Source: Centroscyllium fabricii (lineage: Eukaryota). From it: a stretch of 64,000 nt of DNA. The notes under the pieces are model-generated. The model was not told the DNA's origin, searched no databases, and saw only the letters and a program-made list of their open reading frames with translations. The stretch is from the NCBI GenBank assembly GCA_051313645.2, contig JBNRSN020000005.1:290160001-290224000 (forward strand), written 5' to 3'. The position numbers and the translations under genes were made by a program. Shown here piece after piece: positions 14,080 to 60,262 of the stretch; the first letter of the stretch is position 1, and each line of letters begins with the position of its first letter.

Positions 14080-14095
14080 GTGGAGGCCGGGGAGA

Positions 14096-16564: not shown

Positions 16565-16750
16565 AAATCAGGCCGCTGGCCGTTGCTCCCAGAACTCGGG
16601 TAGAGTTAGTCCACGTCCGGCGTTCTGGCCAAGTCCTTGCGTTCGTGGAGCTTGGTTCCTTGGGTTTACCATGTTTTCTTATTTAAAAAGTTCTTTGGCT
16701 GGTGGTCCCAGATCCTGCGGCAGCTTTTCTTCTCTGGAAGTCATTCCAGT

Positions 16751-16762
16751 TCGGGGTCACCA
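16751..16762 (-). other. Primer-binding site complementary to the tRNA-Trp 3' end
   Basis: TGGTGACCCCGA one base after the 5' LTR; matches the first 12 nt of the tRNA-Trp PBS used by avian retroviruses. Confidence 0.85.
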
Positions 16763-17685
16763 CTGTAGCGCCGGCAGGGCCTAGGAACCACACGTGAGCC
16801 AGAGCTAGAGAAAACACAGCTTTAATACACTAAACAAAACAAGAAAGAGAGTAAACCACTCGCAACAAGCGTATTTAAACAGTCCCGCGGTTGGTGACGT
16901 CATCGCGTCGGCCGACGTGGTGACGTCGTCGCGTCACCCGGATGAGCGGGGCTTTGCTCCGCGGAGTTCCCGTGGCGGATTCGATGTCTCGGTGGGCGTG
17001 CCGCCACACTGTAGTATTTCACACCTCTACTGCAATCGTGAGCAAAGAGCTGATGATAGAAGATTCCACAGGAAGAGCCAGTGTTAATCAGTTAGTTAGA
17101 AGGCAGTTTACTTGTCTGCAAGCAAGTAAACAATTTGCTTACAAACTATCTAAAATCTATTGGTGGCTTTTGGAGATGGCTTGGAAATTGAGATTTTCAT
17201 GTAAATAGTCTTACCATAACAACCTTTGACAAACCAGTGCCTTGAAAACAATGATGTGGAGGTGCCGGTGTTGGACTGGGGTGGACAATTGTAAGAAGTC
17301 ACACAACACCAGGTTATACAAGTGAGGTGGTCCTGGGAACAAGTAGTGGGAAGCCGATTGTGCCATAAACTGGATGGCTTTAGCTGGTTAAACTCCAGAA
17401 ATGCTCCTCCCCAGTCCCAAATCCTTGGCTTTAGCCAACCTGAGCCTCAATTCCATGGATTTGGCATGTGCAGTATGTTACTAGGGGGAAAAAAGTGTGT
17501 GCCCAGCATATTACAGACGCTCTACTTGTGTGTTTCCTCATTAGCTTTGTTTAGAGGTTCATTCTGTACATGTTGGATATGCAGCTGGCCAAGAAATAGT
17601 TCTGCTGCACGCACCGTATCTGCCTTTCACACGATCTTCATTTTTACCTCTATGTTGGAACTTTGTTCTCTCTATCGAATCCTAG

Positions 17686-37020: not shown

Positions 37021-37095
37021 CTGTTGTAGCAATCTCTTGATTCCATAATAATCGTTGTCAGATATGGTATGCGCTTCAAAATCTACTTGCACCTC
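37021..37095 (-). CDS. BCCIP: BCCIP exon 2
   Basis: cag|GAG GTG CAA...CAA CAG|gtaac; EVQVDFEAHTISDNDYYGIKRLLQQ. Confidence 0.93.
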
Positions 37096-38947
37096 CTGTA
37101 GAATAGAAAGATTTGTAAATGTGTATTGCCGATGACACCAATCGTTAACATTTTAAAAAGTAGCACTGCAAACCATTCACTGCAATAAATAGTTTATCAG
37201 AATAAGCCATGGAAAGGAAAAATGCTGTGTCTCTGCTGTGCCATAATGTTATAAATTCAAATGAATGTTTCCATTAATCCGCATACATCTCAAACTGCTG
37301 ATACGAACAGATGTTCTGATTTAGAATGAGAAGACAGTGTTAAGACAACCCTTTCCAAATTTCCAGCAATGAATAAGAAATATAAGCACATATACAAGTT
37401 ACCCGAGCATCTTGGGCCAAACTGCCAGGCCTCGAGGGCTGGGAATGAATCACAAGCCATAGTTTAGACACCCTGATATAATGCCTGGCAGCACAATCGT
37501 TATTATAAATCGAAATAAGAAATGATGATGGAGTCTCCCATCGAATGAGTCTCAGCTGTTATAGATGCGCCAATGGGAGACCAGCCCAATCTTGGATATA
37601 TATCTCATGATCTTGACAAAGCCCCCCGCAAACACAAGATGCCATGTCACAGCGCAACCCCATGTCCGCCTCTCTCCCCCTCCCCCCCCCCCCGCACATG
37701 CGTATCTCTCCCCAATCTCCAGCCCGGTGGGTGTTTCCCTCTCTCCCCACCCCCTGTGCATCTCTCCCTACCCGTGTGTATCTACCCCCATCCCCAGTGT
37801 GTGTGTGTACCTCTCTTCCCGCCAACCGTGTGTGTATCTTCGGGTGACCACAGGTTCCCGTTTTGCGGGGACAGTCCCCAGGTGAGGTACTGTCGGGGGA
37901 TATGGGGAGAGGGTAGGAGGGGGGTGCTGGGTTTGGATGATCAGCCATGATCTCATCAAGAATGGCGGAGCAGGCTTGAAGGGCCGAATGGCCTACTCCT
38001 GCTCCTATCTTCTGTGTTTCTGTACTATGTCCCCGCGCATTCAATCAATGCCCCTGGAAGAGTCCACGGTTCACAAAACTCATCCATTCATCCTAATTGC
38101 AGCTCACGTAAATCCACGCCCGTACTCAGGGACTCAGAGACGGGCCAATCAACAGGGCTTGCTGTTGATTAACAGATTCTCTATCCATTGGCTGAGACGG
38201 ACCAATGAAAGGGCGGATCACCATTTGTTGTCTGCTAAATTGCTTTGACCAGATTGGCTTCGGTTTGAACTAATGAAAGGGCGGATCACAGTTTCTGACG
38301 ACAGTTTGGTTTTGACCAAATTGGCTTCGGTTTGGACCAATGGAAGGACAGAGTGGGGTGCGAGTGCTGGCCAATGGGGCGGTTGCATTTGCGTGGGAGG
38401 TGTGATGGCCGTGTAGTCTGTGTGAGCCTGCACCCGGGAACAAGTAACACATCTCATTGGCTGGTGATGTGAAAACGTGAATCTGACAACTGGATGCAGG
38501 TTCGCCCCAGGGCCGCCCCTCACTCAGCACGCTTCGCCATTTCCCATGGGGGTTAAATATAAAGCGTGACAAAAATAACGGGGTAATTATTAAAGAGACG
38601 CTGCAAACCTGTTACTGACTCAAGGGACTGAAGTACAAACACAGGCCATTGAATAAAAGTCTTGGCCTAGATCCTGGGAATCGGCAGACCACCTAATCCG
38701 TGTCTGGATTCGAGTAGACGAGTCCACGGAGAGCGGGCCCGAGGACGGTCACTGCCTCACGAGGCTGTAATTCAGCTCCTTTATGGACCAGGCCACGATG
38801 CTGAGTCTCAGGCGGCTTCTAGTGTAGAATCGGTCAGGATGAGTGAGCCCGAAGGACCAAGAGGCACTGACATGCCGATGAGATGGTGCCATCAGCGGCA
38901 GCTTCAGTGGTCGGGCTGCATGGCAGATCACAGAGCCAAGGGAGAAA

Positions 38948-39608
38948 TGAACAGACGGAGGCTCGGCCAGTCAGCGCCCGGGAACAGACGACCGCTCGGC
39001 CAGTCAGCGCCCGGGAACAGACGACCGCTCGGCCAGTCAGCGCCCGGGAACAGACGAGCGCTCAGCCAGTCAGCGCCCGGGAACAGACAAAGGCTCGGCC
39101 AATCAGTGCCCGGGAACAGACAAAGGCTCGGCCAGTCAGCGCCCAGGAACAGACGGAGGCTCGGCCAATCAGTGCCCGGGAACAGACGGAGGCTCGGCCA
39201 ATCAGTGCCCGGTAACAGACAAAGGCTCGGCCAGTCAGCGCCCGGGAACAGACAAAGGCTCGGCCAGTCAGCGCCCAGGAACAGACGGAGGCTCGGCCAA
39301 TCAGTGCCCGGGAACAGACGGAGGCTCGGCCAATCAGTGCCCGGGAACAGACAAAGGCTCGGCCAGTCAGCGCCCAGGAACAGACGGAGGCTCGGCCAAT
39401 CAGTGCCCGGGAACAGACGGAGGCTCGGCCAGTCAGCGCCCGGGAACAGACGGAGGCTCGGCCAATCAGTGCCCGGTAACAGACAAAGGCTCGGCCAGTC
39501 AGCGCCCGGGAACAGACAAAGGCTCGGCCAGTCAGCGCCCAGGAACAGACGGAGGCTCGGCCAGTCAGTGCCCGGGAACAAACGGACGCTCGGCCAGTCA
39601 GCGCCCGG
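38948..39608. repeat. 33-bp GC-rich minisatellite, about 20 copies
   Basis: Unit GGGAACAGACGGAGGCTCGGCCA(G/A)TCAG(C/T)GCCC; 11-aa periodicity in the ORF track. Confidence 0.95.
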
Positions 39609-40089
39609 TGTAGGAAAGCGCGACTCCGTGTTTGCTGTGGGACCTTTCCCAGAACTCCAGGGACTTCCCCATGTGGGGAGTGGGGAATCGGCTCTTTACA
39701 TTGACATACATAGAAGTTACAACACGGAAACAGTCCATTCGGCCCAACTCGTCCCTGCCAGCATTTATCCTTCACTGAGCTTCCCCACCCGCCACTCCGT
39801 TCCCAGATTTCAAGGTCGTTCACAGAAGCATAATCAAAAAAATGGACACTGAGCCAAAGAAGGTGATATTGGAAGAATTGACGAAAAATTTGGTCAAAGA
39901 ATATTTCATGGAGGGCCATAAAGGAGGGAGGACAATAAATGACTTGGGCAGTAATGTGAAGAGATTGTTTTTCTGAATAGTATGTATAGACAGAGGATAC
40001 AAAAAAATTACGTTTCTGAAGAGTGTTATTGTACTTCGATATGTGCAGTCACATCCACAGTAATTATGTGCACATTTGTTTAGCTTTTA

Positions 40090-40535
40090 AAAAGACATAC
40101 TTGCATTTATATAGCGCCTTTCACGACCATCGGACGTCCCAAAGCCCAAATACTTTTTTGAAGTGTTATCACTGTTATAATGCAGGAAATGCAGAAGCCA
40201 ATTTGCTCACAGCAAACTCCCACAAACGGCAATGTGATAACGACTAGATGATGTTTTAGTGACGTTGATTTAAGGATAAATATTGGACAGCACACGGGAT
40301 AACTCCCCTGCTCTTCTTCGGAATAATGCCTCGGAATCTTTTACGCCCGAGGGGGCAGATGGGGCCTCGGTTTAATGCCTCATCCAAAAGACGGCACCTC
40401 CGCCAGTGCAGAAGCTCTCTCAGTACCGCACCGGTAGCCAGCCTAGACTTCTGTGCTCAAATCTCTGGAGGGAGACTTGATCCCACAGCCTTCTGACTCA
40501 GGGCGGTGGGAGTGCTGCCCATTGAACCAGGGCTG
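40090..40535 (-). mobile_element. DeuSINE-like SINE (duplicate at 49265-49688)
   Basis: Homologous along its length to 61092-61937. Confidence 0.7.
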
Positions 40536-40999
40536 ATATTTACAGTGTATGTGTGCAACTGTTAAAAAGACAGGCTTCTTAAAAAAAAAATGTTGCTGGG
40601 CTGTGCAACCTACATTTTTTGCCCTGGCTACTTTGTGCTGTACTCCCACCACCCTGTGTTGTCCCCAGATTAAGGTTTAGAAATTTAGGTCACCCTAGTG
40701 TCCTGGCCAATATTTATCCCACAACATAACAAAAAACTAGATTATCTGGTCATTATCACAGTGCTGTTTGTGTGAGCTTGCTGTGCGCAAATTGACTGCC
40801 ACATTTCCTACGTTACAACAGTGACCACACTGAAAAAGTACCTCATTGGCTGTAAAGCGCTTTGATCCGTCAGGCGGTCGTGAAAGGCGCTATATAGATG
40901 TAAGTCTTTTTCTACTTCTTCTTGTTCATGTCTCCCAACCTAGTGTGTTTAACTCTCCCCTCCACCCACCCTCACGCATCCTTATGTGAGTGTCTCTTC

Positions 41000-41905
41000 C
41001 GACTCTAACCTATCCTAACCCACTCTCTTCCCACTCTAACCTATCCTAACCCACTCTCTTCCCACTCTAACCTATCCTAACCCAATCTCTGCCCATTCTG
41101 AGCTATCCTAACCCAATCTCTGCCCACTCTGAGCTATCCTAACCCAATCTCTGCCCATTCTGAGCTATCCTAACCCAATCTCTGCCCACTGAGCTATCCT
41201 AACCCAATCTCTGCCCACTCTGAGCTATCCTAACCCAATCTCTGCCCATTCTGAGCTATCCTAACCCAATCTCTGCCCACTCTGAGCTATCCTAACCCAA
41301 TCTCTGCCCACTCTGAGCTATCCTAACCCAATCTCTGCCCATTCTGAGCTATCCTAACCCAATCTCTGCCCACTGAGCTATCCTAACCCAATCTCTGCCC
41401 ATTCTGAGCTATCCTAACCCAATCTCTGCCCACTCTGAGCTATCCTAACCCAATCTCTGCCCATTCTGAGCTATCCTAACCCAATCTCTGCCCACTCTGA
41501 GCTATCCTAACCCAATCTCTGCCCATTCTGAGCTATCCTAACCCAATCTCTGCCCACTCTTACCTATCCTAACCCAATCTCTGCCCACTCTAACCTATCC
41601 TAACCCAATCTCTGCCCACTCTTACCTATCCTAACCCAATCTCTGCCCACTCTTACCTATCCTAACCCAATCTCTGCCCACTCTTACCTATCCTAACCCA
41701 ATCTCTGCCCACTCTTACCTATCCTAACCCAATCTCTGCCCACTCTGCGCTATCCTAACCCACTCTCTGCCCACTCAGCTATCCTAACCCAATCTCTGCC
41801 CACTCTTACCTATCCTAACCCACTCTGAGCTATCCTAACCCACTCTTACCTATCCTAACCCACTCTTACCTATCCTAACCCACTCTAACCTATCCCACTC
41901 TATCC
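41000..41905. repeat. 31-bp minisatellite with a CCTAACCC core, copy 1
   Basis: Unit CTATCCTAACCCAATCTCTGCCCACTCTGAG plus shorter 20-bp variants. Confidence 0.95.
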
Positions 41906-42421
41906 CGGGTGCCTCTCTCTCTCTCGGGCCCACGTGTACCCGGAGTCTGGCGGGGCCGCGCTCGCGCTGCTTTTGCCAGTTGATCGCGCGGCCCCGCGAG
42001 GGGTGGCGGTTGAGCGGCCTCGGTCAGCGCCTCACCTCGTGCACCACCTCCTCCTCCTCCTCAGAGGCCCCGCTGCTCTCCTCCGACTCTTCCCCCGACT
42101 CGCTCTGCTTCGACACCTCCAGCGCCCGTCGCTTCGTGCAAGACGCCATCTTCCAGCGCGCGATCGTCACCGGAAGTGGGGTCTTCCCCGCAGCCTCCCG
42201 TTTGCGGAGCGCGAAATTGCCGCAGCGAAACCCTCAACCTGTCCCGTTGCCACTGAACATGGATCTTTTATGCGAACGAACTCGCGATTATTAATGACTT
42301 TGATTTATTGTTCCATTTTGGAGGACAATTGCGATTTGGAGCAAACCGCGAACTTCGACCCCGAACAGAAGCAGCGGCCTCGCGAGATCCTGCAGCTGGA
42401 GACGTCATTGGCCCGAGGACA
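41905..42421. promoter_or_regulatory. CpG-island bidirectional BCCIP/UROS promoter, copy 1, with probable non-coding UROS exon 1 ending at 42421
   Basis: CpG-dense; ETS/GABP site ACCGGAAGTG (42169-42178); YY1-type CGCCATCTT over the BCCIP ATG; CTCGCGAGA motif (42379-42387); + strand donor ACA|GTGAGT; the head-to-head BCCIP/UROS arrangement is known in mammals. Confidence 0.75.
42036..42149 (-). CDS. BCCIP: BCCIP exon 1 coding part, proximal copy
   Basis: AAG ATG GCG start context; MASCTKRRALEVSKQSESGEESEESSGASEEEEEVVHE|gtgagg; phase 0 joins exon 2. Confidence 0.9.
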
Positions 42422-42830
42422 GTGAGTGNNNNNNNNNNNNNNNNNNNNNNNNNNNNNNNNNNNNNNNNNNNNNNNNNNNNNNNNNNNNNNNNNNNNNNNN
42501 NNNNNNNNNNNNNNNNNNNNNNNNNNNNNNNNNNNNNNNNNNNNNNNNNNNNNNNNNNNNNNNNNNNNNNTGAGAGAGAGAGTGAGTGAGAGAGTGAGTG
42601 ACAGTGTGAGTGAGTGAGAGTGAGTGAGTGTGACAGAGTGAGTGAGTGACAGAGTGAGTGAGAGACAGTGAGTGAGAGACAGAATGAGTGAGTGAGTGAG
42701 TGAGTGAGAGAGTCAGAGTGAGTGAGAGAGTCAGAGTGAGTGAGAGAGTCAGTGAGTGAGAAACAAGTGAGAGAGTCAGAGTGAGTGAGAGAGTCAGTGA
42801 GTGAGAAACACTCGGTGACAAACAATGAGT
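42422..42830. repeat. (GAGT/GA)n low-complexity tract containing an assembly gap (N 42429-42570); duplicate at 51983-52400
   Basis: Direct reading. Confidence 0.95.
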
Positions 42831-43114
42831 GACAGATACCTATAGAGTGGCAGTGTCAATGAGTGATAAACATACAGTGGCACAGAAACAATGAGAGACA
42901 GATACATATAGAGTGACAAAGAAACAATAATGACAGTTACTTATAGAATGACAGAGATGCAGAGTGACTGGGACAGTTAATGACAAACATACAATGACAC
43001 AGAAACACTGACTGACAGACACATAGAGTAACAACATCATTGTGAGTGACATATACCTGTATACAGAATGACAAAAGGTGTGACCGGTACATAGAGAATG
43101 ATGTCGGAACAAAG

Positions 43115-46100
43115 TGTGGTAACCGTTGTATATACTATTATTACCACCCTAATATTGTCACCAATATTATATGTATGTATAGCGGTCGGGTGCATGATGC
43201 AACTGTCCTGTATTGCGACACTGTCGCGGGGCCAGGTCAGCCACACCTCTAACTCTTCCCCTCAGGTGAGTGCCTTATAGGTGGGGACTGACCGGCCCCC
43301 ATTCATTCTGTACCTGATGTTCGATCGGAGCGTAGCTCCGTTGTAAGCTAATAAAAACCTTCAGTTAAGGTAACTACGCGTCTTTAGTTTTATTAGACTA
43401 TTGACGATACGTCAATTTTATTAGCTTAAAAATTTGAAATGGAGAGCGGCGCTGTGAAACCCGAAAAGCTGAACATTAGTCCACAGGACCCAGCCGCCGC
43501 CAACACCTTCGAACACTGGTTCGGTCTCCTGGAGGCCTACATGGACGCCGCCAAGGCTACAACCGAAGGGAACAAGCTACAGGTTCTCCGATCCAGGATC
43601 TCCAGCCGGGTATTCTCGTTGATCCGTGACGCCAAAACGTACCCCGATGCGGTGGCTAAACTGAAGAAATGCTACGAGCGCCCGGTCCACTCAGTCTACA
43701 CCAGACATGTGCTCGCGACCAGACCACAACTACCGAGTGAGTCAAACGAGCAGTTCGAGCAGGCGCTCCAAGCCCTTGTCCGAGTCTGTGGCTGCCAACC
43801 ACGGACGGCAGAAGAGGAGGCGAACCTCCTCGTCCGGGACGCCTATGTAACGGGACTCAGGTCCGCAGAGGCCCACCAGCGGCTGCTGGAAAAAGACACT
43901 TTAACTCTGGAAGACGCGATCTCTATCGCCAACGCCGTGGAGGGCGCACACCGCAAGCTGCAGGCGTACGGCGGCCCAAACCCACAGGCCTACGACGCGT
44001 GGGCAGCCCCACAACGGGTCGAGACCCACACAATGGCAGCGGCAGCTGCGAAGACGCCGGCGGAGAAGAAATGCTATTTTTCTCTTATTACGCGCAATGG
44101 GTTCCCCAGTTCGCGGATAAGGCCAGACCGCTCCTTAAGGCTGCCGCCTTCCCCCTCTCGGCAGAAGCCCATACGGCATTCACCCGGATCAAGGAAGACA
44201 TTATCAAGGCGACCATGCACGCCGTTGATGAATCCATCCCTTTCCAGGTGGAGAGTTACGCTTCGGACTTTGCCCTTGCCGCCACCCTGAATCAGCCACG
44301 CATGCCCGTAGCGTTTTTCTCCCGCACCTTACAGGGACCCGAAATTCGCCACTCTGCAGTGGAAAAGGTGTCCCAGGCCATCGTGGAGGCCGTGCGCTAC
44401 TGGCGTCATTACCTGGCTGGTAAGCGTTTTACCCTGCTCACCGACCAACGGTCGGTCGCGTTTATGTTTAACAATAAACAAAAGGGTAAAATCAAGAATG
44501 ATAAGATCCTGCGGTGGCGGATCGAGCTCTCTACATACGGGGATAGGGTGGGATATGTGTTGATGCAGGCTCGATAGGGATCGAGGGATATGGGGAGAGG
44601 GCAGGGGCGGGATATGGGGAGAGGGCAGGGGCGGGATATGGGGAGAGGGCAGGGATGATCAGCCATGATCTCATTGAATGGCGGAGCAGGCTCGAAGGGC
44701 CGAATGGCCTACTCCTGCTCCTAGTTTCTATGTTTCTTTACCGACCAGGCAAACTCAATGAACCCCCGGACGCACTGTCCAGGGGAACGTGCGCCAGTGC
44801 CCAGCTAGACCGGCTGAAGGAACTCCACGATCGCCTCTGCCACCCGGGTGTCACCAGACTTGCCCACTTCGTAAAATCCCGTACCCTCCCCTACTCCATC
44901 ACGGAAATCAAGGCTATGACCCGATAGTGCCCTGTTTGCGCCGAGTGCAAACCCCACTTTTTCAGGCCAGACACGGCGCATCTCATTAAGGCCACCCGCC
45001 CCTTTGAACGTCTAAGCGTGGACTTCAAAGGCCCCCTCCCCACCACCGACCGCAACTCGTACTTCCTCACGGTCGTAGACGAGTTCTCCCGCTTCCCCTT
45101 CCCCTGCCCAGATATGATGAGCGCAACGGTGATCAAACACTTCACCACGCTGTTCGCCATTTTCGGTCTCCCCAGCTACATCCATAGCGACCGGGGGGCG
45201 TTGTTCATTAGCAACGAACTGCTTCAGTTTCTGCTCCAGACAGGGGTTGCCTCGAGCAGAACGACCAGTTACAACCCCCGGGGGAACGGCCAGGTAGAAA
45301 GGGAGAATGGGATCATCTGGAAGGCGGTCAACCTGGCCCTGAAGTCCAGAGCCCTTCCAGTGTCCCGTTGGCAGGCAGTCCTCCCTGATGCGCTGCACTC
45401 GATACGCTCTCTGTTGTGTACGGCCACCAACGCCACACCTCACGACTTAATTTTTTCATTCCCCAGGAAGTCGACTTCGGGGACAGCCCTTCCACCGTGG
45501 CTCACGATGCCGGGGCCGGTCTTGCTTAGGAAGCACGTCCGCGGCCATAAGACCGACCCCCTGGTAGACAAGGTGCAGCTGCTGCACGCCAACCCGCAGT
45601 ACGCGTACGTAGTTCCCGGACGGGCGCGAGGACACCATCTCCATCAAGGACCTAGCGCCCGCCGGGAGCACCACAGCAGAGCCCCTGGTCGGGCAGCAGC
45701 CTGCCCAGCCACTATATTTCGGCCACCTCCAGCCACTACATATCGACCACTGGCCGATACACGACCCACAACCCACCGGAGGCTGGCCGCCACTACCGCA
45801 TGGTTCGGAGCCCCCGCCATTGCCAGCTGAGGACCAAGACTCGGATGACCAGCTGCAGGCACAGCAGCAGCCGCAGGGCTCGGACCCACCGCCACCACCT
45901 ACAGTACCGGCACCAGCGCCGCCGCCACCACCACCGGCTCCAGCGCCGCCGATGCTGCAGGAACCAGAACATTTGACAGAGACCCGGCGGTCCTCCAGAC
46001 AGACGTGACCGCCGGATAAACTAATCATGAACTGCTCTGTCCATTCACCCCACCGGACTTGATTTTCAAAGAAGGGGTGAATGTGGTAACCGTTGTATAT

Positions 46101-46360
46101 ACTATTATTACCACCCTAATATTGTCACCAATATTATATGTATGTATAGCGGTCAGGTGCATGATGCAACTGTCCTGTATTGCGACACTGTCGCGGGGCC
46201 AGGTCAGCCACACCTCTAACTCCTCACCTCAGGTGAGTGCCTTATAGGTGGGGACTGACCTGATGTTCGATCGGAGCGTAGCTCCGTCGTAAGCTAATAA
46301 AAGCCTTGAGTTAAGGTAACTACGCGTCTTTAGTTTTATTAGACTATTGACGATACATCA
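43115..46360 (+). mobile_element. Internally deleted Ty3/Gypsy LTR element (gag, RNase H, integrase; no PR or RT core)
   Basis: LTRs 43115-43414 and 46082-46360 (TG..CA); 5-bp TSD CAAAG; PPT AAAGAAGGGGTGAA; gag from 43439; RNase H about 44080-44530; integrase DFKGP/HSDRG/NGQVER about 44760-45610; empty site at 52676-52680. Confidence 0.95.
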
Positions 46361-47459
46361 CAAAGTGTGAGTGAAATGTACACTGACACACAAACAGATA
46401 CATGCAGAATGATACCGAGTGAATGAGCGGTACATACTGAGTGAGTGGCCAATACACAAGAGTGGCACAAGGACATAAACAGTGTGAATGTCAGCTACAT
46501 ACATACTGAGTGACAGTTACATACTGAATGACAGGTGCATGCAGAATTACACCGGGACAAATAAATAGTGTGATTGACATACACAGTATGAAATACTCTG
46601 ACTGATGTGGATACATATACACAATTTGTATGAAACAGACAAAGTTATAGAAACACTTAGAAGTGACATTGAGTAGCACGGAGACTTAAATACTGCTAAT
46701 GAGCAACAGAAACATAGATATTCATACACACAGAGTGAATCACAGATGGAAACATTGAGATACAGTAATGTTGTCTTTCATTCAAGATCTGAATCACTCA
46801 GACAGTGACTACATGCACCACATTTACATGTTTAGACAGTGAACTGGACTGGTTTGATGTAGTCCTTCAGCATATATACAAAACAAATTAGGGTTCTTGG
46901 AGTACAAATGACATTGGAGAGCCAGTAAGTTTATATTTACTGGAGCAAATTAGAGACCTGCATATCAGGAGTCATCGGTATTAAAGTAATTTAAAAGGGC
47001 TTTTTGTGACAGACATGGATAGAAATGCACACGATGAATAAGAATCAGAGCCATTGGGTCAATAATGTGGTCCTGGCATTATTGCTGCTCCAAGGTGAAC
47101 CTGAACCAAAATGAGCTGACCTCGTACCAGAATGCAAGGTCAGCTTATTTAAATATTTCAGTGGCACTCCAGGTACAGAGCAGGCACTGCATTGGGAACA
47201 TGTCAGGAAGGAGCTGGGTGGCAGCTGGAATGTTAACCACCATCAGCCAATGAAGGGCTGCTAGCTGCCCAAACATTGCTGCTGTTTTTTTGTTGTTGGA
47301 TAGGCTGGGAACTTAAGCCTCCTTGTTGCAGCAAGTCACTTAAGCTGGGAAAAAAATCAGAATAAATATTAGGCAGAGTGCCACCAGGATGTAAAATATA
47401 CCCCCCCCCCCTCCAAAATTTTTTTTCCCTGAACTGCCGGTACCAAATGAGCACTTAAT

Positions 47460-47762
47460 GGGGGGGATTTTCATGTCCCCGTGAGGCAGGGTTTTGGGCA
47501 GCCCGGCCGGCAAAATAGCGGAACTGACGGATCCCGCCCCTCCCCACCGTATCCCCACCGCTTTCTCATTTTCCCCCGCCCAGATTCCCCACGCTGCAGC
47601 CGGACTTGATTCACCTAATTACCTCCCGCTCCCGCCGACGGAGATTTAACAACCGCATTAACCTAAAATTGCGTGGGCTTCCCAGCTGGTTGGGTGGGCG
47701 GGACCGGAAGCCGCCCAGACCAATCCCCGCCAGGTTCCCGCCCTTCCGGAAAAATCGCCCCC
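47460..47762. mobile_element. Harbinger-like MITE, internally deleted; longer copy at 53782-55755
   Basis: TIRs GGGGGGGATTTTC / GAAAAATCGCCCCC; TSD AAT. Confidence 0.65.
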
Positions 47763-48623
47763 AATAACTGGAACTTGCTCAAGCACTGCAGTCACCTTAT
47801 GGGGAGGCCCTTAAAGAAGAAAATGTGGCACGTTAACGTGTTTGCACTCATTTTAGGAGCTTAATAAGCTTTGCGCATGTTTTGTGTGCAGGCGTCCAAC
47901 ATGCTTCGTGCTTGTTGGCCACACTATGGTATGCATGGTGAATCGAATGCATAGCAGCCTCTAAACGCAGTAATATAGGCACCTGGCATTGCATTATCAA
48001 GCACATAGAAACATGGTGTGTATTAGGAGTTGAGAGAGAAACATAAAAGCACTGTGATAAGGGACATAAACTCAAGATATACAATATTTGAAGAAAGTGA
48101 CAACAGATAGTGATGTAAATAGTCTCACAGAAAAAGCGCACACAGTAAGTGAAGAGAAACAGTGAGGAAGGAACAAAGCCACAGCCAGGTACACAGATTG
48201 ATGAGAGGACAGAGAGAAATACACACACAGAAAATGAGAGAGTAATTGTGCGAGGTATAGAAAAAGGATAGGCAAGGAAGTGTGAAAGCAAGGTGAAAAG
48301 GTGTGAGAAACCTAAAGTAAGAAACACACTTTAAATTTCTTTATATACAAACTTGAGCCCCAATAGCTCAGTGAGTGAATGCATTGCATAATGTAGCATA
48401 GCAGTACAGATGAGAAAAGTTCAAGATTCAATCTCCAGTCTGTGATGCATTAGCGATCTCAGTCAAGATAGGACTGAATGTGTTACCAATGGCCTCCGTA
48501 CTCCTATGCTAGGGAGGTGAAAAACTAGCCATGGATAACAGAGTTATGTAGCACAAGATTTGCCAAAAAAAAGCATATCTTAATGAAGGGAATATCATAG
48601 CTTCACTCCATTGACAATGATAA

Positions 48624-49140
48624 ATAAGAAATAAGAGCAGGAGTAGGCCATTCGGCCCCTCGAGTCTGCTCCATCATTCAACAAGATCATGGCAGATCTT
48701 CTACCTCATCTCCACTTTCCTGCACTATCCCCATATCCCTTGATTCCCTTAATATCCAAAAATCTATCGATCGCTCTCTTGAATATACTCAATGACTGGG
48801 CTTCCACAGCCCTCTGCGGTAGAGAATTCCAAAGATTCACCACCCTCTGAGTGAAGAAATGTTTCCTCATCTCAGTCCTAAATGGGCGACCCCTTATTCT
48901 GAGACTGTGACCCCTGGTTCTGGACTCCCCAGCCAGGGGAAACATCCTCCCTGCATCTACCCTGTCAAGCCCTGTAAGAACTTTGTATGTTTCAATGAGA
49001 TCACCTCTCATTCTTCTAAACTCTACAGAATATAGGCCGAGTCTACTCAATCTCTCCTCATAGGACAATCTCCCATCCCAGGATTCAGTTTGGTGAACCT
49101 TCGTTGCACTCCCTCTATGGCAAGTATATCCTTCCTTAGG
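48624..49140 (-). mobile_element. CR1-type LINE 3' fragment truncated at the duplication junction
   Basis: SYEERLSRLGLYSVEFRRMRGDLIETYK; longer counterpart at 58005-58630. Confidence 0.9.
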
Positions 49141-50149
49141 TTTTTCTGAATAGTATGTATAGACAGAGGATACAAAAAAATTACGTTTCTGAAGAGTGTT
49201 ATTGTACTTCGATATGTGCAGTCACATCCACAGTAATTATGTGCACATTTGTTTAGCTTTTAAAAAGACATACTTGCATTTATATAGCGCCCAAAGCCTA
49301 AATACTTTTTTGAAGTGTTATCACTGTTATAATGCAGGAAATGCAGAAGCCAATTTGCTCACAGCAAACTCCCACAAACGGCAATGTGATAACGACTAGA
49401 TGATGTTTTAGTGACGTTGATTTAAGGATAAATATTGGACAGCACACGGGATAACTCCCCTGCTCTTCTTCGGAATAATGCCTCGGAATCTTTTACGCCC
49501 GAGGGGGCAGATGGGGCCTCAGTTTAACGCCTCATCCAAAAGACGGCACCTCCGCCAGTGCAGAAGCTCTCTCAGTACCGCACCGGTAGCCAGCCTAGAC
49601 TTCTGTGCTCAAATCTCTGGAGGGAGACTTGATCCCACAGCCTTCTGACTCAGGGCGGTGGGAGTGCTGCCCATTGAACCAGGGCTGATATTTACAGTGT
49701 ATGTGTGCAACTGTTAAAAAGACAGGCTTCTTAAAAAAAAATGTTGCTGGGCTGTGCAACCTACATTTTTCGCCCTGGCTACTTTGTGCTGTACTCCCAC
49801 CACCCTGTGTTGTCCCCAGATTAAGGTTTAGAAATTTAGGTCACCCTAGTGTCCTGGCCAATATTTATCCCACAACATAACAAAAAACTAGATTATCTGG
49901 TCATTATCACAGTGCTGTTTGTGTGAGCTTGCTGTGCACAAATTGACTGCCACATTTCCTACGTTACAACAGTGACCACACTGAAAAAGTACCTCATTGG
50001 CTGTAAAGCGGTTTGATCCGTCAGGCGGTCGTGAAAGGCGCTATATAAATGTAAGTCTTTTTCTACTTCTTCGTGTTCATGTCTCCCAACCTAGTGTGTT
50101 TAACTCTCCCCTCCACCCACCCTCACGCATCCTTATGAGTGTCTCTTCG

Positions 50150-51465
50150 CACTCTAACCTACCCACTCTAACCTATCCTAACCCACTCTCTTCCCACTCT
50201 AACCTATCCTAACCCACTCTCTTCCCACTCTAACCTATCCTAACCCACTCTCTCCTATCCTAACCCACTCTCTGCCCACTCTGAGCTATCCTAACCCAAT
50301 CTCTGCCCATTCTGAGCTATCCTAACCCAATCTCTGCCCATTCTGAGCTATCCTAACCCAATCTCTACCCACTCTTGAGCTATCCTCACCCAATCTCTGC
50401 CCACTCGGAGCTATCCTAACCCAATCTCTGCCCACTCTAACCTATCCTAACCCAATCTCTACCCATTCTGAGCTATCCTAACCCAATCTCTGCCCACTGA
50501 GCTATCCTAACCCAATCTCTACCCACTGAGCTATCCTAACCCAATCTCTGCCCACTCTAACCTATCCTAACCCAATCTCTGCCCACTCTAACCTATCCCA
50601 ACCCACTCTCTGCCCACTTTGAGCTATCCTAACCCAATCTCTGCCCACTCTAACCTATCCTAACCCAATCTCTGCCCACTCTAACCTATCCCAACCCACT
50701 CTCTGCCCACTTTGAGCTATCCTAACCCAATCTCTGCCCACTCTTACCTATCCCAACCCAATCTCTGCCCACTCTAACCTATCCTAACCCACTTTGAGCT
50801 ATCCTAACCCAATCACTGCCCACTCTAACCTATCCTAACCCACTCTGAGCTATCCTAACCCAATCACTGCCCACTCTAACCTATCCTAACCCACTCTGAG
50901 CTATCCTAACCCAATCTCTGCCCACTCTAACCTATCCTAACCCACTCTCTGCCCACTCTAACCTATCCTAACCCAATCTCTACCCACTCTGAGCTATCCT
51001 AACCCAATCTCTGCCCACTCTAAACTATCCCAACCCAATCTCTGCCCACTTTGAGCTATCCTAACCCACTCTGAGCTATCCTAACCCAATCTCTGCCCAC
51101 TCTAACCTATCCTAACCCACTGTCTACCCACTCTAACCTATCCTAACCCAATCTCTACCCACTCTGAGCTATCCTAACCCAATCTCTGCCCACTCTGAGC
51201 TATCCTAACCCAATCTCTGCCCACTCTAACCTATCCCAACCCAATCTCTGCCCACTTTGAGCTATCCTAACCCACTCTGAGCTATCCTAACCCAATCTCT
51301 GCCCACTCTAACCTATCCTAACCCAATCTCTGCCCACTTTGAGCTATCCTAACCCACTCTCTGCCCACTCTAACCTATCCTAACCCACTCTGAGCTATCC
51401 TAACCCACTCTGAGCTATCTTAACCCACTCTCTGCCCATTCTGAGCTATCCTAACCCACTCTATC
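50150..51465. repeat. 31-bp minisatellite, copy 2 (longer, different variant order)
   Basis: Same unit as 41000-41905. Confidence 0.95.
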
Positions 51466-51982
51466 CCGGGTGCCTCTTTCTCTCTCAGGCCCACGTGTAC
51501 CCGGAGTCTGGCGGGGCCGCGCTCGCGCTGCTTTTGCTAGTTGATCGCGCGGCCCCGCGAGGGGTGGCGGTTGAGCGGCCTCGGTCAGCGCCTCACCTCG
51601 TGCACCACCTCCTCCTCCTCCTCAGAGGCCCCGCTGCTCTCCTCCGACTCTTCCCCCGACTCGCTCTGCTTCGACACCTCCAGCGCCCGTCGCTTCGTGC
51701 AAGACGCCATCTTCCAGCGCGCGATCGTCACCGGAAGTGGGGTCTTCCCCGCAGCCTCCCGTTTGCGGAGCGCGAAATTGCCGCAGCGAAACCCTCAACC
51801 TGTCCCGTTGCCACTGAACATGGATCTTTTATGCGAACGAACTCGCGATTATTAATTACTTTGATTTATTGTTCCATTTTGGGGGACAATTGCGATTTGG
51901 AGCAAACCGCGAACTTCGACCCCGAACAGAAGCAGCGGCCTCGCGAGATCCTGCAGCTGGAGACGTCATTGGCCCGAGGACA
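51465..51982. promoter_or_regulatory. CpG-island bidirectional BCCIP/UROS promoter, copy 2, with probable non-coding UROS exon 1 ending at 51982
   Basis: Near-identical duplicate of 41905-42421 with the same motifs and donor. Confidence 0.75.
51597..51710 (-). CDS. BCCIP: BCCIP exon 1 coding part, distal duplicate (intact)
   Basis: Same 38 codons and GT donor as 42036-42149, offset by 9561 bp. Confidence 0.75.
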
Positions 51983-54474
51983 GTGAGTGAGAGAGAAACA
52001 GAGTGAGAGAGAAACAGAGTGAGTGAGTGAGAAAGAGTGAGTGAGTGACAGAGTGAGAGAGAGACAGAGTGAGAGAGAGACAGAGTGAGTGAGAGAGTGA
52101 GTGTGAGAGTGAGAGAGTGACAGAGTGAGAGAGAGTGACAGAGTGAGTGAGTGACAGAGTGAGAGAGAGTGAGTGACAGAGTGAGTGAGAGAGAGAGAGT
52201 GACAGAGTGAGTGAGAGAGAGAGACAGAGTGAGTGAGTGAGAGAGTGAGTGAGTGAGAGAGAGTGAGTGACAGAGTGAGAGACAGAGTGAGAGAGAGACA
52301 GAATGAGTGAGAAAGACAGTGAGTGAGAAAGAGAGTGTGAGCAGGTCAGTGAGTGAGTGAGAGGGTCAGTGAGTGAGAAACACTCAGTGACAAACAATGA
52401 GTGACATACCTATAGAGTGGCAGTGTCAATGAGTGATAAACATACAGTGGCACAGAAACAATGAGAGACAGATACATATAGAGTGACAAAGAAACAATAA
52501 TGACAGTTACTTATAGAATGACAGAGATGCAGAGTGACTGAGACAGTTAATGACAAACATACAATGACACAGAAACACTGACTGACAGACACATACAGAG
52601 TAACAACATCATTGTGAGTGACGTATACCTGTATACAGAATGACAAAAGGTGTGACATACAGAATGATGTAGGAACAAAGTGTGAGTGAAATGTACACTG
52701 ACCCACAAACAGATACATGCAGAATGATACCGAGTGAATGAGCGGTACATACTGAGTGAGTGGCCAATACACAAGAGTGGCACAAGGACACAAACAGTGT
52801 GAATGTCAGCTACATACATACTGAGTGACAGTTACATACTGAATGACAGGTGCATGCAGAATTACACCGGGACAAATAAATAGTGTGATTGACATACACA
52901 GTATGAAATACTCTGACTGATGTGGATACATATACACAATTTGTATGAAACAGACAAAGTTATAGAAACACTTAGAAGTGACATTGAGTAGCACGGAGAC
53001 TTAAATACTGCTAATGAGCACCAGAAACATAGATATTCATACACACAGAGTGAATCACAGATGGAAACATTGAGATACAGTAATGTTGTCTTTCATTCAG
53101 GATCTGAATCACTCAGACAGTGACTACATGCACCACATTTACATGTTTAGACAGTGAACTGGACTGGTTCGATGTAGTCCTTCAGCATATATACAAAACA
53201 AATTAGGGTTCTTGGAGTACAAATGACATTGGAGAGCCAGTAAGTTTATATTTACTGGAGCAAATTAGAGACCTGCATATCAGGAGTCATCCGTATTAAA
53301 GTAATTTAAAAGGGCCTTTTGTGACAGACATGGATAGAAATGCACACGATGAATAAGAATCAGAGGCATTGGGTCAATAATGTGGTCCTGGCATTATTGC
53401 TGCTCCAAGGTGAACCTGAACCAAAATGAGCTGACCTCGTACCAGAATGCAAGGTCAGCTTATTTAAATATTTCAGTGGCACTCCAGGTACAGAGCAGGC
53501 ACTGCATTGGGAACATGTCAGGAAGGAGCTGGGTGGCAGCTGGAATGTTAACCACCATCAGCCAATGAAGGGCTGCTAGCTGCCCAAACATTGCTGCTGT
53601 TTTTTTGTTGTTGGATAGGCTGGGAACTTAAGCCTCCTTGTTGCAGCAAGTCACTTAAGCTGGGAAAAAAATCAGAATAAATATTAGGCAGAGTGCCACC
53701 AGGATGTAAAATATACCCCCCCCCCCCCTCCAAAAAAATTTTTTTTTCCCCTGAACTGCCGGTACCAAATGAGCACTTAATGGGGGGGATTTTCATGTCC
53801 CCGTGAGGCAGGGTTTTGGGCAGCCCGGCCGGCAAAATAGCGGAACTGATGGATCCCGCCCCTCCCCACCGTATCCCCACCGCTTTCTCATTTTCCCCCG
53901 CCCAGATTCCCCACCCCGAAACCTTCCCGCCGCCGACTGGCGGGGATGTGTTGTCACCTCATTAAAGGCCCTTAATTGGCATCCTTAATGCCATTTTAAG
54001 GGCCCTCAGCCATTTTGCCGTGTTTTCCACCCTAATCCCGCCACCTTAAACCCCGCTGGGTGAAACCCAGCGGGAGCACAGCGCTGCTTCTAACTTTTGG
54101 ACTATAACCTGGTGTTGTGTGACTTCGTTAATTTATTACTTTCTCCTTTAAGGTGTGAAGGACATGCTGCCAAATGCTTGGCATGCCTCCAGCACCTTAG
54201 AGGAGATAGTAACTCCGTTCTGGCTTCAGCATCAGCTGTGAACAGAAATTGAGCAATCTCAGTTCTCACAATGTCCTCACAGCTGGTGCGAGCTGTGAGG
54301 GATTCGGAGCCCGCCCGCCTACCTGTCAGTCACCAGCACTTGGCCATTCCCATTGGCTCCACTCCACTGTGATGTCACAGTGGGGTGTTGCCATGGGAAC
54401 TGACAACAACCAGTACTGGAACTATCAATCAAAGTGCTCACCGCTCCGCTGCAGCCTGACTTGATTCACCTAAT

Positions 54475-55607
54475 AGAAACATAGAAACATAGAAGATAGG
54501 AGCAGGAGTAGGCCATTCGGCCCTTCGAGCCTGCTCCGCCATTCAATGAGATCATGGCTGATCATCCAAACCCAGCACCCCGCCCCTGCCCCGTCCCCCA
54601 TATCCCCCGATCCCTATCGAACCTGTACCGACACATATAAGAACATAAGAACATAAGAAATAGGAGCAGGAGTAGGCCAATCGGCCCCTCGAGCCTGCTC
54701 CGCCATTCAACAAGATCATGGCTGATCTGATCCTAATCTCAATTTTATTTTTACTCTCCACCCCGCCCAGACCAATGTGATCACCTGGGAGAGGTGAAAA
54801 ACCAGATTAAAAAAAAAAAAGTAGCCAATTTTGGAGAGAAAAAAAAAAAATCAGGAAAATTCCTCTCCGACCCATCTAGGCGATCGAAAACTGGTCCAGG
54901 AGATCACATGGCCGATCTGAACCTAGCCTCACGTCCACTTACCAGCCCGTTCACCATAACCCCTAATTCCCTTTAATTCCAGGAAACTGTCTATCTCAGT
55001 TTTAAATTTATTCAACGTAGTAGCTTCTACAGCTCTCTGGGGCAGCAATTTCCACAGCTGCACCACCCTCTGAGTAAAGAAGTTCCCCCTCATCTCAGTT
55101 TTGAAATGGGAGCCCCTTATTTTAAGATTATGCCCCCTAGTCCTAGTCTCACCCACCATTGGGGACATCCTCACCGCATCCACCCGATCAAGCCCTCTCA
55201 CAATCTTATATATTTCAATAAGATCGCCTCTCATTCTTCTGAACTCCAATGAGTAGAGGCCCAATCCACTCAGCCTCTCGTCATATGTTAGCCCCCTCAT
55301 CCCCGGAATTAACCTAGTGAATCTTCTCTGCACTGCCTCGAGAGCAAGTATGTCCTTTCTTAAATAGGGACACCAGAACTGCACGCAGTATTCCAGGTGA
55401 GGTCTCACCAATACCCTATACAACTGCAGCAAGACCTCCCTGCTTTTATACTCAATCCCCCTAGCAATAAAAGCCAACATTCCGTTGGCCTTCCTTACCA
55501 CCTGCTGCACCTGGATATTAACTTTCTGTGTCCCCTGCACCAGGACCCCCAGATCCCTTTGCACTGAAGTACTTTCCAGTTCCTTTCCATTTAGATAATA
55601 ACTCGCT
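54475..55607 (-). mobile_element. Compound SINE-tail/CR1 insertion specific to duplication copy 2
   Basis: TSD CTAAT (54470-54474, 55608-55612); CR1 ORF 54929-55600; absent at about 47615 in copy 1. Confidence 0.88.
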
Positions 55608-56677
55608 CTAATTACCTCCCGCTCCCGCCGACGGAGATTTAACAACTGCATTAACCTAAAATTACGTGGGCTTCCCAGCTGGTTGGGTGGGCGGGACCGG
55701 AAGCCGCCCAGACCAATCCCCGCCAGGTTCCCGCCCTTCCGGAAAAATCCCCCCCAATAACTGGAACTTGCTCAAGCACTGCAGTCACCTTATGGGGAGG
55801 CCCTTAAAGAAGAAAATGTGGCACGTTAACGTGTTTGCACTCATTTTAGGAGCTTAATAAGCTTTGCGCATGTTTTGTGTGCAGGCGTCCAACATGCTTC
55901 GTGCTTGTTGGCCACACTATGGTATGCATGGCGAATCGAATGCATAGCAGCCTCTAAACGCAGTAATATAGGCACCTGGCATTGCATTATCAAGCACATT
56001 GAAACATGGTGTGTATTAGGAGTTGAGAGAGAAACATAAAAGCACTGTGATAAGGGACATAAACTCAAGATATACAATATTTGAAGAAAGTGACAACAGA
56101 TAGTGATGTAAATAGTCTCACAGAAAAAGCGCACACAGTAAGTGAAGAGAAACAGTGAGGAAGGAACAAAGCCACAGCCAGGTACACAGATTGATGAGAG
56201 GACAGAGAGAAATACACACACAGAAAATGAGAGAGTAATTGTGCGAGGTATAGAAAAAGGATAGGCAAGGAAGTGTGAAAGCAAGGTGAAAAGGTGTGAG
56301 AAACCTAAAGTAAGAAACACACTTTAAATTTCTTTATATACAAACTTGAGCCCCAATAGCTCAGTGAGTGAATGCATTGCATAGCAATACAGATGAGAAA
56401 AGTTCAAGATTCAATCTCCAGTCTGTGATGCATTAGCGATCTCAGTCAAGATAGGACTGAATGTGTTACCAATGGCCTCCGTACTCCTATGCTAGGGAAG
56501 TGAAAAATTAGCCATGGATAACAGAGTTATGTAGCACAAGATTTGCCCCAAAAAAGCATATCTTAATGAAGGGAATATCATAGCTTCACTCCATTGACAA
56601 TGATACATAAGAAATAAGAGCAGGAGTAGGCCATTCGGCCCCTCGAGTCTGCTCCATCATTCAACAAGATCATGGCA

Positions 56678-57650
56678 GTCCCATTGAGCTAGTCAGTGGA
56701 GGAGAGACATTGGAGGTGGCTGGTGTCAAAGGCTGCAGACAGCTCGAGAAGGATGAGGAGGGACAATTTACCACGGTCACAATCACATGGAATGTCATTT
56801 CTCACTCTGATTAAGCTATTTCAGTGCTGTAGTGGGGCGGAAACCTGATTTGGAGAGGTTCACACATGGAGATACGGGAAAGATTGGCACCGATTTGGAA
56901 GGCGACAACACGTTCAAGGAATCTGTAGAGTAAAGAGAGGTTGTCGATGTGGCGGTAGTTTGCAATGACATTGGGGTCAAGGCTGGATTTTTTGAGAGTT
57001 GCGGGGGAGGGGCGGGGGGTGATGACGGCCGATTTGAGAGTGCAGTACCAGAGGAGAGGGAACCATTTACAATATCAGCTAGCATATGAGGGCCAAGAAG
57101 GAAAGCTCAGTGGAAATAGAGTTGAGGGAGCAGGTGGTGGGTTTCATGGACAAGATGAGCTCAGAGAGGGAATGAGGGGAGAAAGGTTAGAAACTAGAGA
57201 ATGATGCGAGTTCAGGGCTAGGGCAGAAGGGGACCTTGAGGGAAATTTGGCTCGGTGGGCTTGTGGAAGGTAGCATTGCGGCAGAAACAGCTGAACGGAT
57301 GGTCTCAATCTTACTGACAAAGAAGTCCATGAGATCCTCGCACTTGTTGGAGGTGAGGGTGGAGGGAGCAAAGAAGAGGGGCAAGGGTGGGATGGCAGTA
57401 TTAATAAGGAATTCTATCATAGCATTAGAATGTAAGAATGTTGAGGATTAGGAGAGAAAATGGCACAATTCTCACTGTGCTTTACAGACCACCAAACAAT
57501 AGAGAGGAAATGGAAGGGGAGATTTGTAAACTATTCAGGAAGATATATATGAATGATAGGACAATAATATTAAGTAATTTTTACTATTTCAAGATAGACT
57601 GGGGTAAAGGTGACCCGTATAGTGAAAGTGAGGAATGCTATTCAGAAACA
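56678..57650. mobile_element. L2-like (-) and CR1-endonuclease-like (+) fragments, present only in copy 2
   Basis: NKCEDLMDFFVSKIETIRSA (L2-like) and LTVLYRPPN...FYYFKIDW (APE-like); splits a CR1 tail that is intact in copy 1. Confidence 0.6.
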
Positions 57651-57654
57651 TCCA

Positions 57655-57995
57655 AGGCACGGTGGCACAGTGGTTAGCACTGTTGTCTCACAGCACTGGA
57701 GACCCGGGTTCAAATCCAGCCTCGGGTACTATCTGTGTGGAGTTTGCACATTCTCCCCGTGTCTGCGTGGGTTTCCTCCGGGTGCTCCGGTTTCCTCCCA
57801 CAGTCCAAAAATGTGCGGGTTAGGTTGATTGGCCATGATAAATTGACCCTTAGTGTTAGGGTGATTGAATATGTGGGGATGTGGGGATAGGGTGGGATAT
57901 GTGTCGATGCAGGCTTGATGGGGATATGGGGAGAGGGCAGGGGCGGGGTACTGGGTTTGGATGATCAGCTCCTAGCTTCTATGTTTCTATGTTTC
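57655..57995 (+). mobile_element. HE1-like V-SINE
   Basis: Head, B box, V core, partly deleted tail. Confidence 0.85.
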
Positions 57996-58004
57996 TGGCT
58001 GATC

Positions 58005-58630
58005 TACCTCATCTCCACTTTCCTGCACTATCCCCATATCCCTTGATTCCCTTAATATCCAAAAATCTATCGATCGCTCTCTTGAATATACTCAATGACT
58101 GGGCTTCCACAGCCCTCTGGGGTAGAGAATTCCAAAGATTCACCACCCTCTGAGTGAAGAAATGTTTCCTCATCTCAGTCCTAAATGGGCGACCCCTTAT
58201 TCTGAGACTGTGACCCCTGGTTCTGGACTCCCCAGCCAGGGGAAACATCCTCCCTGCATCTATCCTGTCAAACCCTGTAAGAACTTTGTATGTTTCAATG
58301 AGATCACCTCTCATTCTTCTAAACTCTACAGAATATAGGCCGAGTCTACTCAATCTCTCTTCATAGGACAATCTCCCATCCCAGGATTCAGTTTGGTGAA
58401 CCTTCGTTGCACTCCCTCTATGGCAAGTATATCCTTCCTTAGGTAAGGAGACCAAAACTGTACACAATACTCCAGGTGTGGTCTCACCAGGGCCCTATAT
58501 AATTGCAGTAAGACACCTTTACTCTTATACTCAAATCCTCTTGTAATAAAGGCCAACATACCATTTGCTTTCCTAATTGCTTGCTGTACCTGCATGTTAA
58601 CTTTCAGTGACTCGTGTACAAAGACACCCA
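58005..58630 (-). mobile_element. CR1-type LINE fragment
   Basis: KANGMLAFITRGFEYK...LVRPHLEYCVQFWSPYLRKD. Confidence 0.9.
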
Positions 58631-60199: not shown

Positions 60200-60262
60200 A
60201 TGAAAGTCCTTTTGCTTAAAGATCCCAAAGAAGGAGAATTGGGACTTGATCCATATGTTCAG
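60200..60262 (+). CDS. UROS: Uroporphyrinogen-III synthase, first coding exon (acceptor at 60180)
   Basis: MKVLLLKDPKEGELGLDPYVQ|gtgagt resembles the recalled UROS N-terminus MKVLLLKD...DPYI; synteny with BCCIP. Confidence 0.9.

What the first reader, a model, noticed from the sequence alone, without database searches (positions are those of the whole stretch)
39967..58443. Tandem duplication of the whole BCCIP/UROS bidirectional promoter, giving each gene two first exons
Seen: a head-to-tail duplication whose junction at 49140 lies inside a CR1, with only GT microhomology and no N gap. Both copies keep the CpG island, ETS and YY1-type motifs, an identical 38-codon BCCIP exon 1 with donor, and the putative UROS exon 1 donor. 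The only gap (42429-42570) is inside copy 1, and the contig after it holds two copies of the 42.6-49.1 kb segment, which argues against a simple scaffolding artefact. Inference: both genes gain an alternative promoter without duplicating their coding bodies. The UROS-direction transcript from copy 1 and the BCCIP-direction transcript from copy 2 would converge over about 9.5 kb, allowing interference or dsRNA.
Basis: partly seen in the sequence, partly recalled or inferred. Interest (0 to 1): 0.72.

Follow-up and report, generated by a model that had tools for sequence, protein, structure and literature searches.

The report
Duplicated shared promoter of BCCIP/UROS
In this fish genome assembly the switch region that two back-to-back housekeeping genes share is present twice in a row; the doubling is likely real rather than an assembly error, and it would let each gene run mainly from its own copy, but no read has yet confirmed the join and no RNA shows that both copies work.

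Summary
The assembly holds a head-to-tail duplication (39967-49141, 49140-58444) with a GT overlap at the join, two CpG islands and identical BCCIP exon 1 copies; the BCCIP body is single-copy. Is it real? About 0.75. For: no N at the join, and contig depth about 1.3 times a biased background, against 0.87 expected for two alleles. Against: in 3 of 4 public runs the contig runs in from the upstream flank, and none listed crosses the join. That is weak, because a true insertion junction also vanished in 2 of 4 runs. No RNA test was possible. Both islands keep their CpGs (1 of 56 changed, against 10 of 83 outside). The closest precedent is the CYP19A1 promoter duplication; the scan noted a similar case in another genome (e1-9069461).

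The parts
39967..49141 (.). Copy 1 of the duplicated unit (nearer the BCCIP body)
   Evidence: self-BLAST and alignment
49140..58444 (.). Copy 2 of the duplicated unit (nearer the UROS body)
49140..49141 (.). Join, GT overlap, no N; CR1 cut on the left, old repeat cut on the right
   Evidence: not crossed by any contig listed
40993..41895 (.). 31-nt satellite in BCCIP intron 1, copy 1
50150..51462 (.). 31-nt satellite, copy 2 (longer)
41902..42428 (.). CpG island, copy 1, with YY1-type (42144) and ETS (42170) motifs
51463..51989 (.). CpG island, copy 2, with the same motifs (51705, 51731)
42036..42149 (-). BCCIP exon 1 coding part, copy 1 (38 codons, phase-0 donor)
   Evidence: in frame with exon 2; exon 1 itself lies outside the Pfam model
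51597..51710 (-). BCCIP exon 1 coding part, copy 2 (identical)
42422..42427 (+). Putative UROS exon 1 donor, copy 1 (unverified)
   Evidence: motif only
51983..51988 (+). Putative UROS exon 1 donor, copy 2 (unverified)
   Evidence: motif only
42429..42570 (.). 142 N inside copy 1's GA repeat; mask or gap cannot be told
43115..46360 (+). LTR retroelement private to copy 1, internally deleted, 5-nt target duplication, sense to UROS, AATAAA at 43350 and 46296; LTRs differ at 7 of 280 sites plus a 21-nt indel
   Evidence: (integrase core)
53915..54447 (.). About 530 nt present only in copy 2, probably deleted from copy 1
   Evidence: other family copies continue as copy 2 does (loose ends)
54475..55607 (-). 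SINE plus young CR1-type piece private to copy 2, 5-nt target duplication
   Evidence: about 99% to relatives
56679..58001 (+). Old LINE-like piece plus SINE private to copy 2, matching a single donor locus (G000:C113, 140.87 Mb); likely 5' transduction
   Evidence: 30 substitutions in 1295
51487..51488 (+). AG found only in copy 2, after a branch-like CTAAC and 14 of 15 pyrimidines: predicted new splice acceptor in the UROS direction
37021..37095 (-). BCCIP exon 2 (single copy, outside the duplication)
60200..60262 (+). UROS first coding stretch (outside the duplication)
   Evidence: match to human UROS, PDB 1jr2

Best explanation
The assembly carries the shared BCCIP/UROS CpG-island promoter twice in tandem; this is likely a real duplication made by microhomology-guided repair or template switching, after which each gene would be driven mainly by its nearer island. 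Shown: the two copies, the gapless join, 0.96% divergence, four private segments and retained CpGs. Inferred: that the join exists in the animal, and that both islands are unmethylated. Predicted: copy 1 feeds BCCIP and copy 2 feeds UROS. The inward UROS transcript from copy 1 would tend to end at the sense LTR poly(A) signals or splice into copy 2's island. The inward BCCIP transcript from copy 2 could skip copy 1's exon 1, which has no acceptor-like site upstream, and give the same protein. The net effect would be a mild dosage change tolerated by drift, not a new regulatory system.
For: No N at the join; the only N in 464 kb lies 6.6 kb away. False tandem copies are most often separated by a gap (PMC9516828, passages; bioRxiv 2020.05.22.110833 Box 1). 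Summed contig depth over three shared segments is 42.7, 43.7 and 44.9, against a median of 33 for 12 background joint contigs seen in all four runs; those 12 come from the 15 best-supported of 142 joints, so the background is if anything too high. The ratio is 1.3, against 0.87 expected for two alleles, 1.25-1.4 for three copies and 1.75 for four. A copy-1-only junction contig reaches 0.87 and 0.71 of background in the two runs that list it, against 0.5 expected for an allele. Both versions occur in both samples. Four large differences to 44 substitutions is far above the average allelic ratio of about 1 in 100 (PMC13320814, passage). CpG decay is 1 of 56 in the island and 10 of 83 outside (Fisher p 0.05); both islands methylated is unlikely (p 0.009). 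Sense ERV insertions are known to cause premature polyadenylation (PMC1794541, passages).
Against: No listed contig crosses the join. In X1, X2 and X4 the contig covering 49140-49291 begins 125 nt earlier, which fits the upstream flank exactly; X3 lists none there. Per-run depth ratios scatter from 1.10 to 1.57, the tool warns that this depth is no copy number, and no true flank baseline was obtained. The two samples belong to one study and may be one animal, possibly the assembled one. Gap-filled false duplications without N exist, and false duplications are enriched where haplotypes differ most, which weakens the structural-variant argument. Two private segments look older than the copies' divergence (2.3% to donor, p 0.0003; LTR pair 2.5%, p 0.03), yet differences are evenly spread with no sign of conversion tracts; high allelic diversity would explain this simply. 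One silent island is not excluded (p 0.15). No RNA was examined. PMC1794541 also says a working splice acceptor is needed for such termination, which I did not test.
Confidence: 0.45

Rival explanations
1. False heterotype duplication: the two haplotypes of one highly heterozygous animal were placed in tandem and joined without a gap, so there is one promoter.
For: No contig crosses the join and 3 of 4 runs read through from the flank. Only two versions are seen; all 13 other letters listed in unique parts are the other copy's letters. Even 1% divergence and older private insertions fit alleles. Gapless false duplications are documented.
Against: No N at the join, and it would need a 6.6-kb filled piece or a same-locus chimera (inference). 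Logan contigs use SPAdes-like simplification, and the LTR junction, real under either reading, was lost in 2 of 4 runs. Depth is 1.3 rather than 0.87 of background. No other unique tandem twin in 464 kb, and no haplotig twin among the scored candidates for 3 of 3 small scaffolds (swamped by repeats).
Confidence: 0.25
2. Real duplication, but one island is silent or decaying; the extra copy is neutral intronic DNA. It may also be a heterozygous copy-number variant.
For: Island divergence (5 of 534) equals the rest. One methylated island predicts 3.4 CpG losses and 1 is seen (p 0.15). Depth fits three copies best.
Against: No substitution in 318 nt covering exon 1 and the motifs (p 0.047, chosen after looking). 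No third allele was seen.
Confidence: 0.15
3. One reading: both islands fire productively both ways, each gene has two working first exons, and the inward transcripts overlap for 9.5 kb.
For: Both islands, motifs and donors are intact. A distal duplicated first exon is transcribed in CYP19A1 duplication patients (PMC3272822, passages).
Against: Sense LTR poly(A) signals lie after copy 1. UROS exon 1 is unverified. The BCCIP first exons are identical, so no new protein results. No RNA evidence.
Confidence: 0.15

Closest known systems
CYP19A1 79,156-bp tandem promoter duplication in aromatase excess syndrome (PMC3272822, passages)
   Same: Tandem copy of promoters and first exons without the coding body; attributed to a replication template switch; the distal copy is transcribed and splices into a downstream first exon.
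   Different: One gene, tissue-specific promoters, heterozygous and pathogenic. Here a promoter shared by two head-to-head genes, with copies 1% apart and reshaped by retroelements.
False heterotype duplication in genome assemblies (PMC9516828, passages; bioRxiv 2020.05.22.110833 Box 1)
   Same: Two about 99% identical versions in tandem with haplotype-like insertions.
   Different: Usually gap-separated with half depth; here no N at the join and depth not clearly halved.
Convergent co-regulated promoters (PMC11735407, passages)
   Same: Two divergent promoters in series give a four-start layout with inward-facing starts on CpG islands.
   Different: Defined within 2.5 kb and linked by one active chromatin domain; here 9.5 kb apart, of duplicate origin, and untested for transcription.
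Mammalian UROS/BCCIP head-to-head locus and UROS alternative promoters (PMC3178617, PMC3904948, passages)
   Same: Same gene pair and orientation; UROS already has a housekeeping and an intron 1 erythroid promoter.
   Different: The mammalian second promoter is described as an erythroid-specific intron 1 element, not a copy of the shared island. PMC3178617 places the mouse UROS promoter inside a BCCIP intron, so the start sites here may overlap rather than simply diverge.

Membership tests
Real tandem (segmental) duplication | Two head-to-tail copies with one novel join | tested here: met
   (assembly only)
Real tandem (segmental) duplication | Join present in reads | tested here: inconclusive
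   no listed contig crosses it; simplified contigs also lost a true junction in 2 of 4 runs
Real tandem (segmental) duplication | Collapsed depth above single-copy level | tested here: inconclusive
   1.3 times a biased background, 1.10-1.57 by run; no flank baseline
False heterotype duplication | Assembly gap between the copies | tested here: not met
   no N at 49140; a filled gap cannot be excluded
False heterotype duplication | Half depth per copy; divergence equal to heterozygosity | tested here: inconclusive
   heterozygosity could not be measured
Bidirectional (head-to-head) CpG-island promoter | Opposite-facing genes around one CpG island | tested here: met
   BCCIP on minus, UROS on plus, island
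Bidirectional (head-to-head) CpG-island promoter | Divergent start sites shown by RNA | not testable with these tools
   no RNA holder listed
Alternative promoters by first-exon duplication | Both first exons splice to the shared downstream exon | not testable with these tools
   frame compatible for BCCIP; no transcripts
Convergent co-regulated promoters | Divergent start pairs within 2.5 kb | tested here: not met
   about 9.5 kb apart against the 2,500-bp rule

The most novel reading that the evidence does not exclude
A tandem duplication has uncoupled an ancient shared promoter: copy 1 became BCCIP's and copy 2 became UROS's. An LTR terminator in copy 1 and a new splice acceptor in copy 2 dispose of the inward UROS transcript, so two genes that shared one promoter can now be regulated apart without moving or copying either gene.
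Probability: 0.12. Interest if true: 0.7.

Novelty: new variant of a known kind. Interest (0 to 1): 0.38.

Why it matters
If real and transcribed, it is a natural experiment on how head-to-head genes escape a shared promoter, with copy-specific variants that let RNA and methylation be assigned to each island. Promoter-only tandem duplication is known (CYP19A1). My searches (listings only) showed no report of it for a shared BCCIP/UROS promoter. If false, it is a warning that a gapless join does not prove a duplication.

Tried and rejected
No RNA holder was listed, so expression was not tested. No read-based baseline for single-copy flank depth or heterozygosity was obtained; the depth comparison rests on background contigs. 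Haplotig twins to estimate heterozygosity: 3 of 12 fetched small-scaffold pieces were searched, none showed a twin, and the results were dominated by repeats. Gene conversion as the reason for young-looking identity: no clustering of 42 substitutions (variance/mean 0.71-0.81, longest identical run unremarkable). The GT overlap as proof of a repair mechanism: 17% by chance. Assembly gap size: no other N in 464 kb to compare. Look-alike stretches in other scanned genomes: 0. A HEM4 family search of G000 found nothing, so UROS copy number in the genome was not shown that way; UROS was identified by PDB match instead. Three GATA-type sites lie in the 1.2 kb before UROS exon 2, with no chance test, so no erythroid promoter is claimed. 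PMC9826928 passages gave no numeric shark heterozygosity. No supplements were read.
Full report
Setting. The window lies on a 351-Mb scaffold of a 7.2-Gb genome; earlier AI notes on this genome call it a shark or ray (not checked). BCCIP runs on the minus strand, with Pfam PF13862 matches at two places, both in this window. UROS runs on the plus strand, with its first coding exons matching human UROS. The head-to-head layout is as in mouse and human (PMC3178617, one passage).

What is there. Copy 1 is 39967-49141 and copy 2 is 49140-58444, joined over GT with no N. Segment D, the island and the start of segment A each have only these two near-identical places in the genome. BCCIP exon 1 is identical in both copies and in phase with exon 2. 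The shared parts differ at 44 of 4570 sites plus 15 small indels, evenly spread. Copy 1 has a 3.2-kb LTR element with a target duplication. Copy 2 has about 530 nt that copy 1 seems to have lost, a young SINE/CR1 insertion, and a 1.3-kb piece that matches one donor locus on another scaffold.

Is the duplication real? Four public runs, from two samples of one study and kept only as contigs, were laid on 46300-50140. Both versions occur in both samples, and all 13 other letters listed in unique parts are the other copy's letters. No listed contig crosses the join. In X1, X2 and X4 the contig covering 49140-49291 starts 125 nt earlier, which matches the upstream flank by position; X3 lists none there. 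This counts against the duplication, but weakly. These contigs are simplified with SPAdes-like rules (Logan preprint, passages), and from my own knowledge such rules drop short paths beside very deep repeats like CR1. The LTR junction, real under either reading, was likewise read through in 2 of 4 runs. The piece table was also heavily cut.

Depth leans the other way. Summed over runs, three shared segments give 42.7, 43.7 and 44.9. Twelve background joint contigs present in all runs give a median of 33; I dropped three of the 15 shown rows because they were missing from some runs. The ratio is 1.3, with 1.10-1.57 by run. Expected values are 0.87 for two alleles, 1.25-1.4 for three copies and 1.75 for four. 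The tool warns that this depth is no copy number, and I have no true flank baseline. False tandem copies usually have a gap between them, but gap-filled ones occur (PMC9516828, passages). The N run cannot serve as evidence. I put the duplication at about 0.75 real.

An unresolved point. Two private segments look older than the 0.96% between copies: 30 of 1295 to the donor and 7 of 280 between LTRs. At the 1.3-kb piece, copy 1's empty site carries the donor-side letter, which 0 of 63 family matches show, while 56 of 63 carry the other. Copy 1 may therefore have lost the piece or been converted at its edge. This fits exchange between paralogues or between alleles equally well.

How it most likely works. 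CpG changes are 1 of 56 in the island and 10 of 83 outside, where they split 5 and 5 between the copies. That disfavours both islands being methylated (p 0.009) but not one (p 0.15), and it is trivial if the copies are alleles. For BCCIP, copy 2's exon 1 could splice to exon 2 past copy 1's exon 1, since no acceptor-like site was found upstream of it; the protein would be the same. For UROS, copy 1's inward transcript meets a sense LTR element about 0.7 kb on, with AATAAA in both LTRs; such insertions can end transcripts early (PMC1794541, passages). Copy 2 alone has an AG after a branch-like motif and a pyrimidine run; this pattern scored at 3 places in 24 kb and was noticed after the fact. 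I therefore predict that each gene is driven mostly by its nearer island. All of this is inference; no RNA holder was listed, and UROS exon 1 is only a motif.

Comparison. Tandem duplication of promoters and first exons without the gene body is known from CYP19A1, where the distal copy is transcribed and splices into a downstream first exon (PMC3272822, passages; lead from note e1-9069461). Human convergent promoters lie within 2.5 kb and tend to be co-regulated (PMC11735407, passages); this pair is 9.5 kb apart and fails that definition. UROS already has an intron 1 erythroid promoter in mammals (PMC3904948, passages). Searches listed no report of this duplication; subscription papers are largely outside that library.

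Verdict. Observation partly confirmed, interpretation partly supported. It is a new variant of a known kind, with interest 0.38. The promoter-uncoupling reading has probability about 0.12 and would merit 0.7.

Noticed in passing
window 51452-51488: A copy-2-only G>A change makes an AG 33 nt after a branch-like CTAAC at the end of the satellite, with 14 of 15 pyrimidines before it; a predicted new acceptor in the UROS direction.
   Followed up: partly
window 56679-58001 and G000:C113:140.87 Mb (L045): Likely SINE 5' transduction carrying about 1 kb of upstream DNA from a single donor locus, 2.3% diverged, with a short deletion near the SINE's 3' end.
   Followed up: yes
window 48690-48700: Copy 1's empty site has the donor-side letter rather than the family letter (0 of 63 against 56 of 63), hinting at precise loss or conversion.
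   Followed up: partly
window 43109-43118 and 46360-46369: A 10-nt direct repeat flanks the LTR element (target duplication plus chance matches), so precise loss from copy 2 cannot be excluded.
   Followed up: no
window 38949-39608: CpG-rich 33-nt tandem array (20 copies) in BCCIP intron 1 just outside the duplication, next to a 67-nt repeat with CCAAT-like words at 38201-38347.
   Followed up: no
window 12596-17009: LTR retroelement on the minus strand, LTRs 98.4% alike, with long open stretches.
   Followed up: no
window 42304 and 51865: AATAAA on the minus strand about 150 nt upstream of each BCCIP start codon; it could end read-through from copy 2 at copy 1's island.
   Followed up: no
window 51820-51982: Two upstream ATGs in the putative UROS leader, one open through the putative donor; the true start may lie downstream of them, or the donor may be wrong.
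   Followed up: partly
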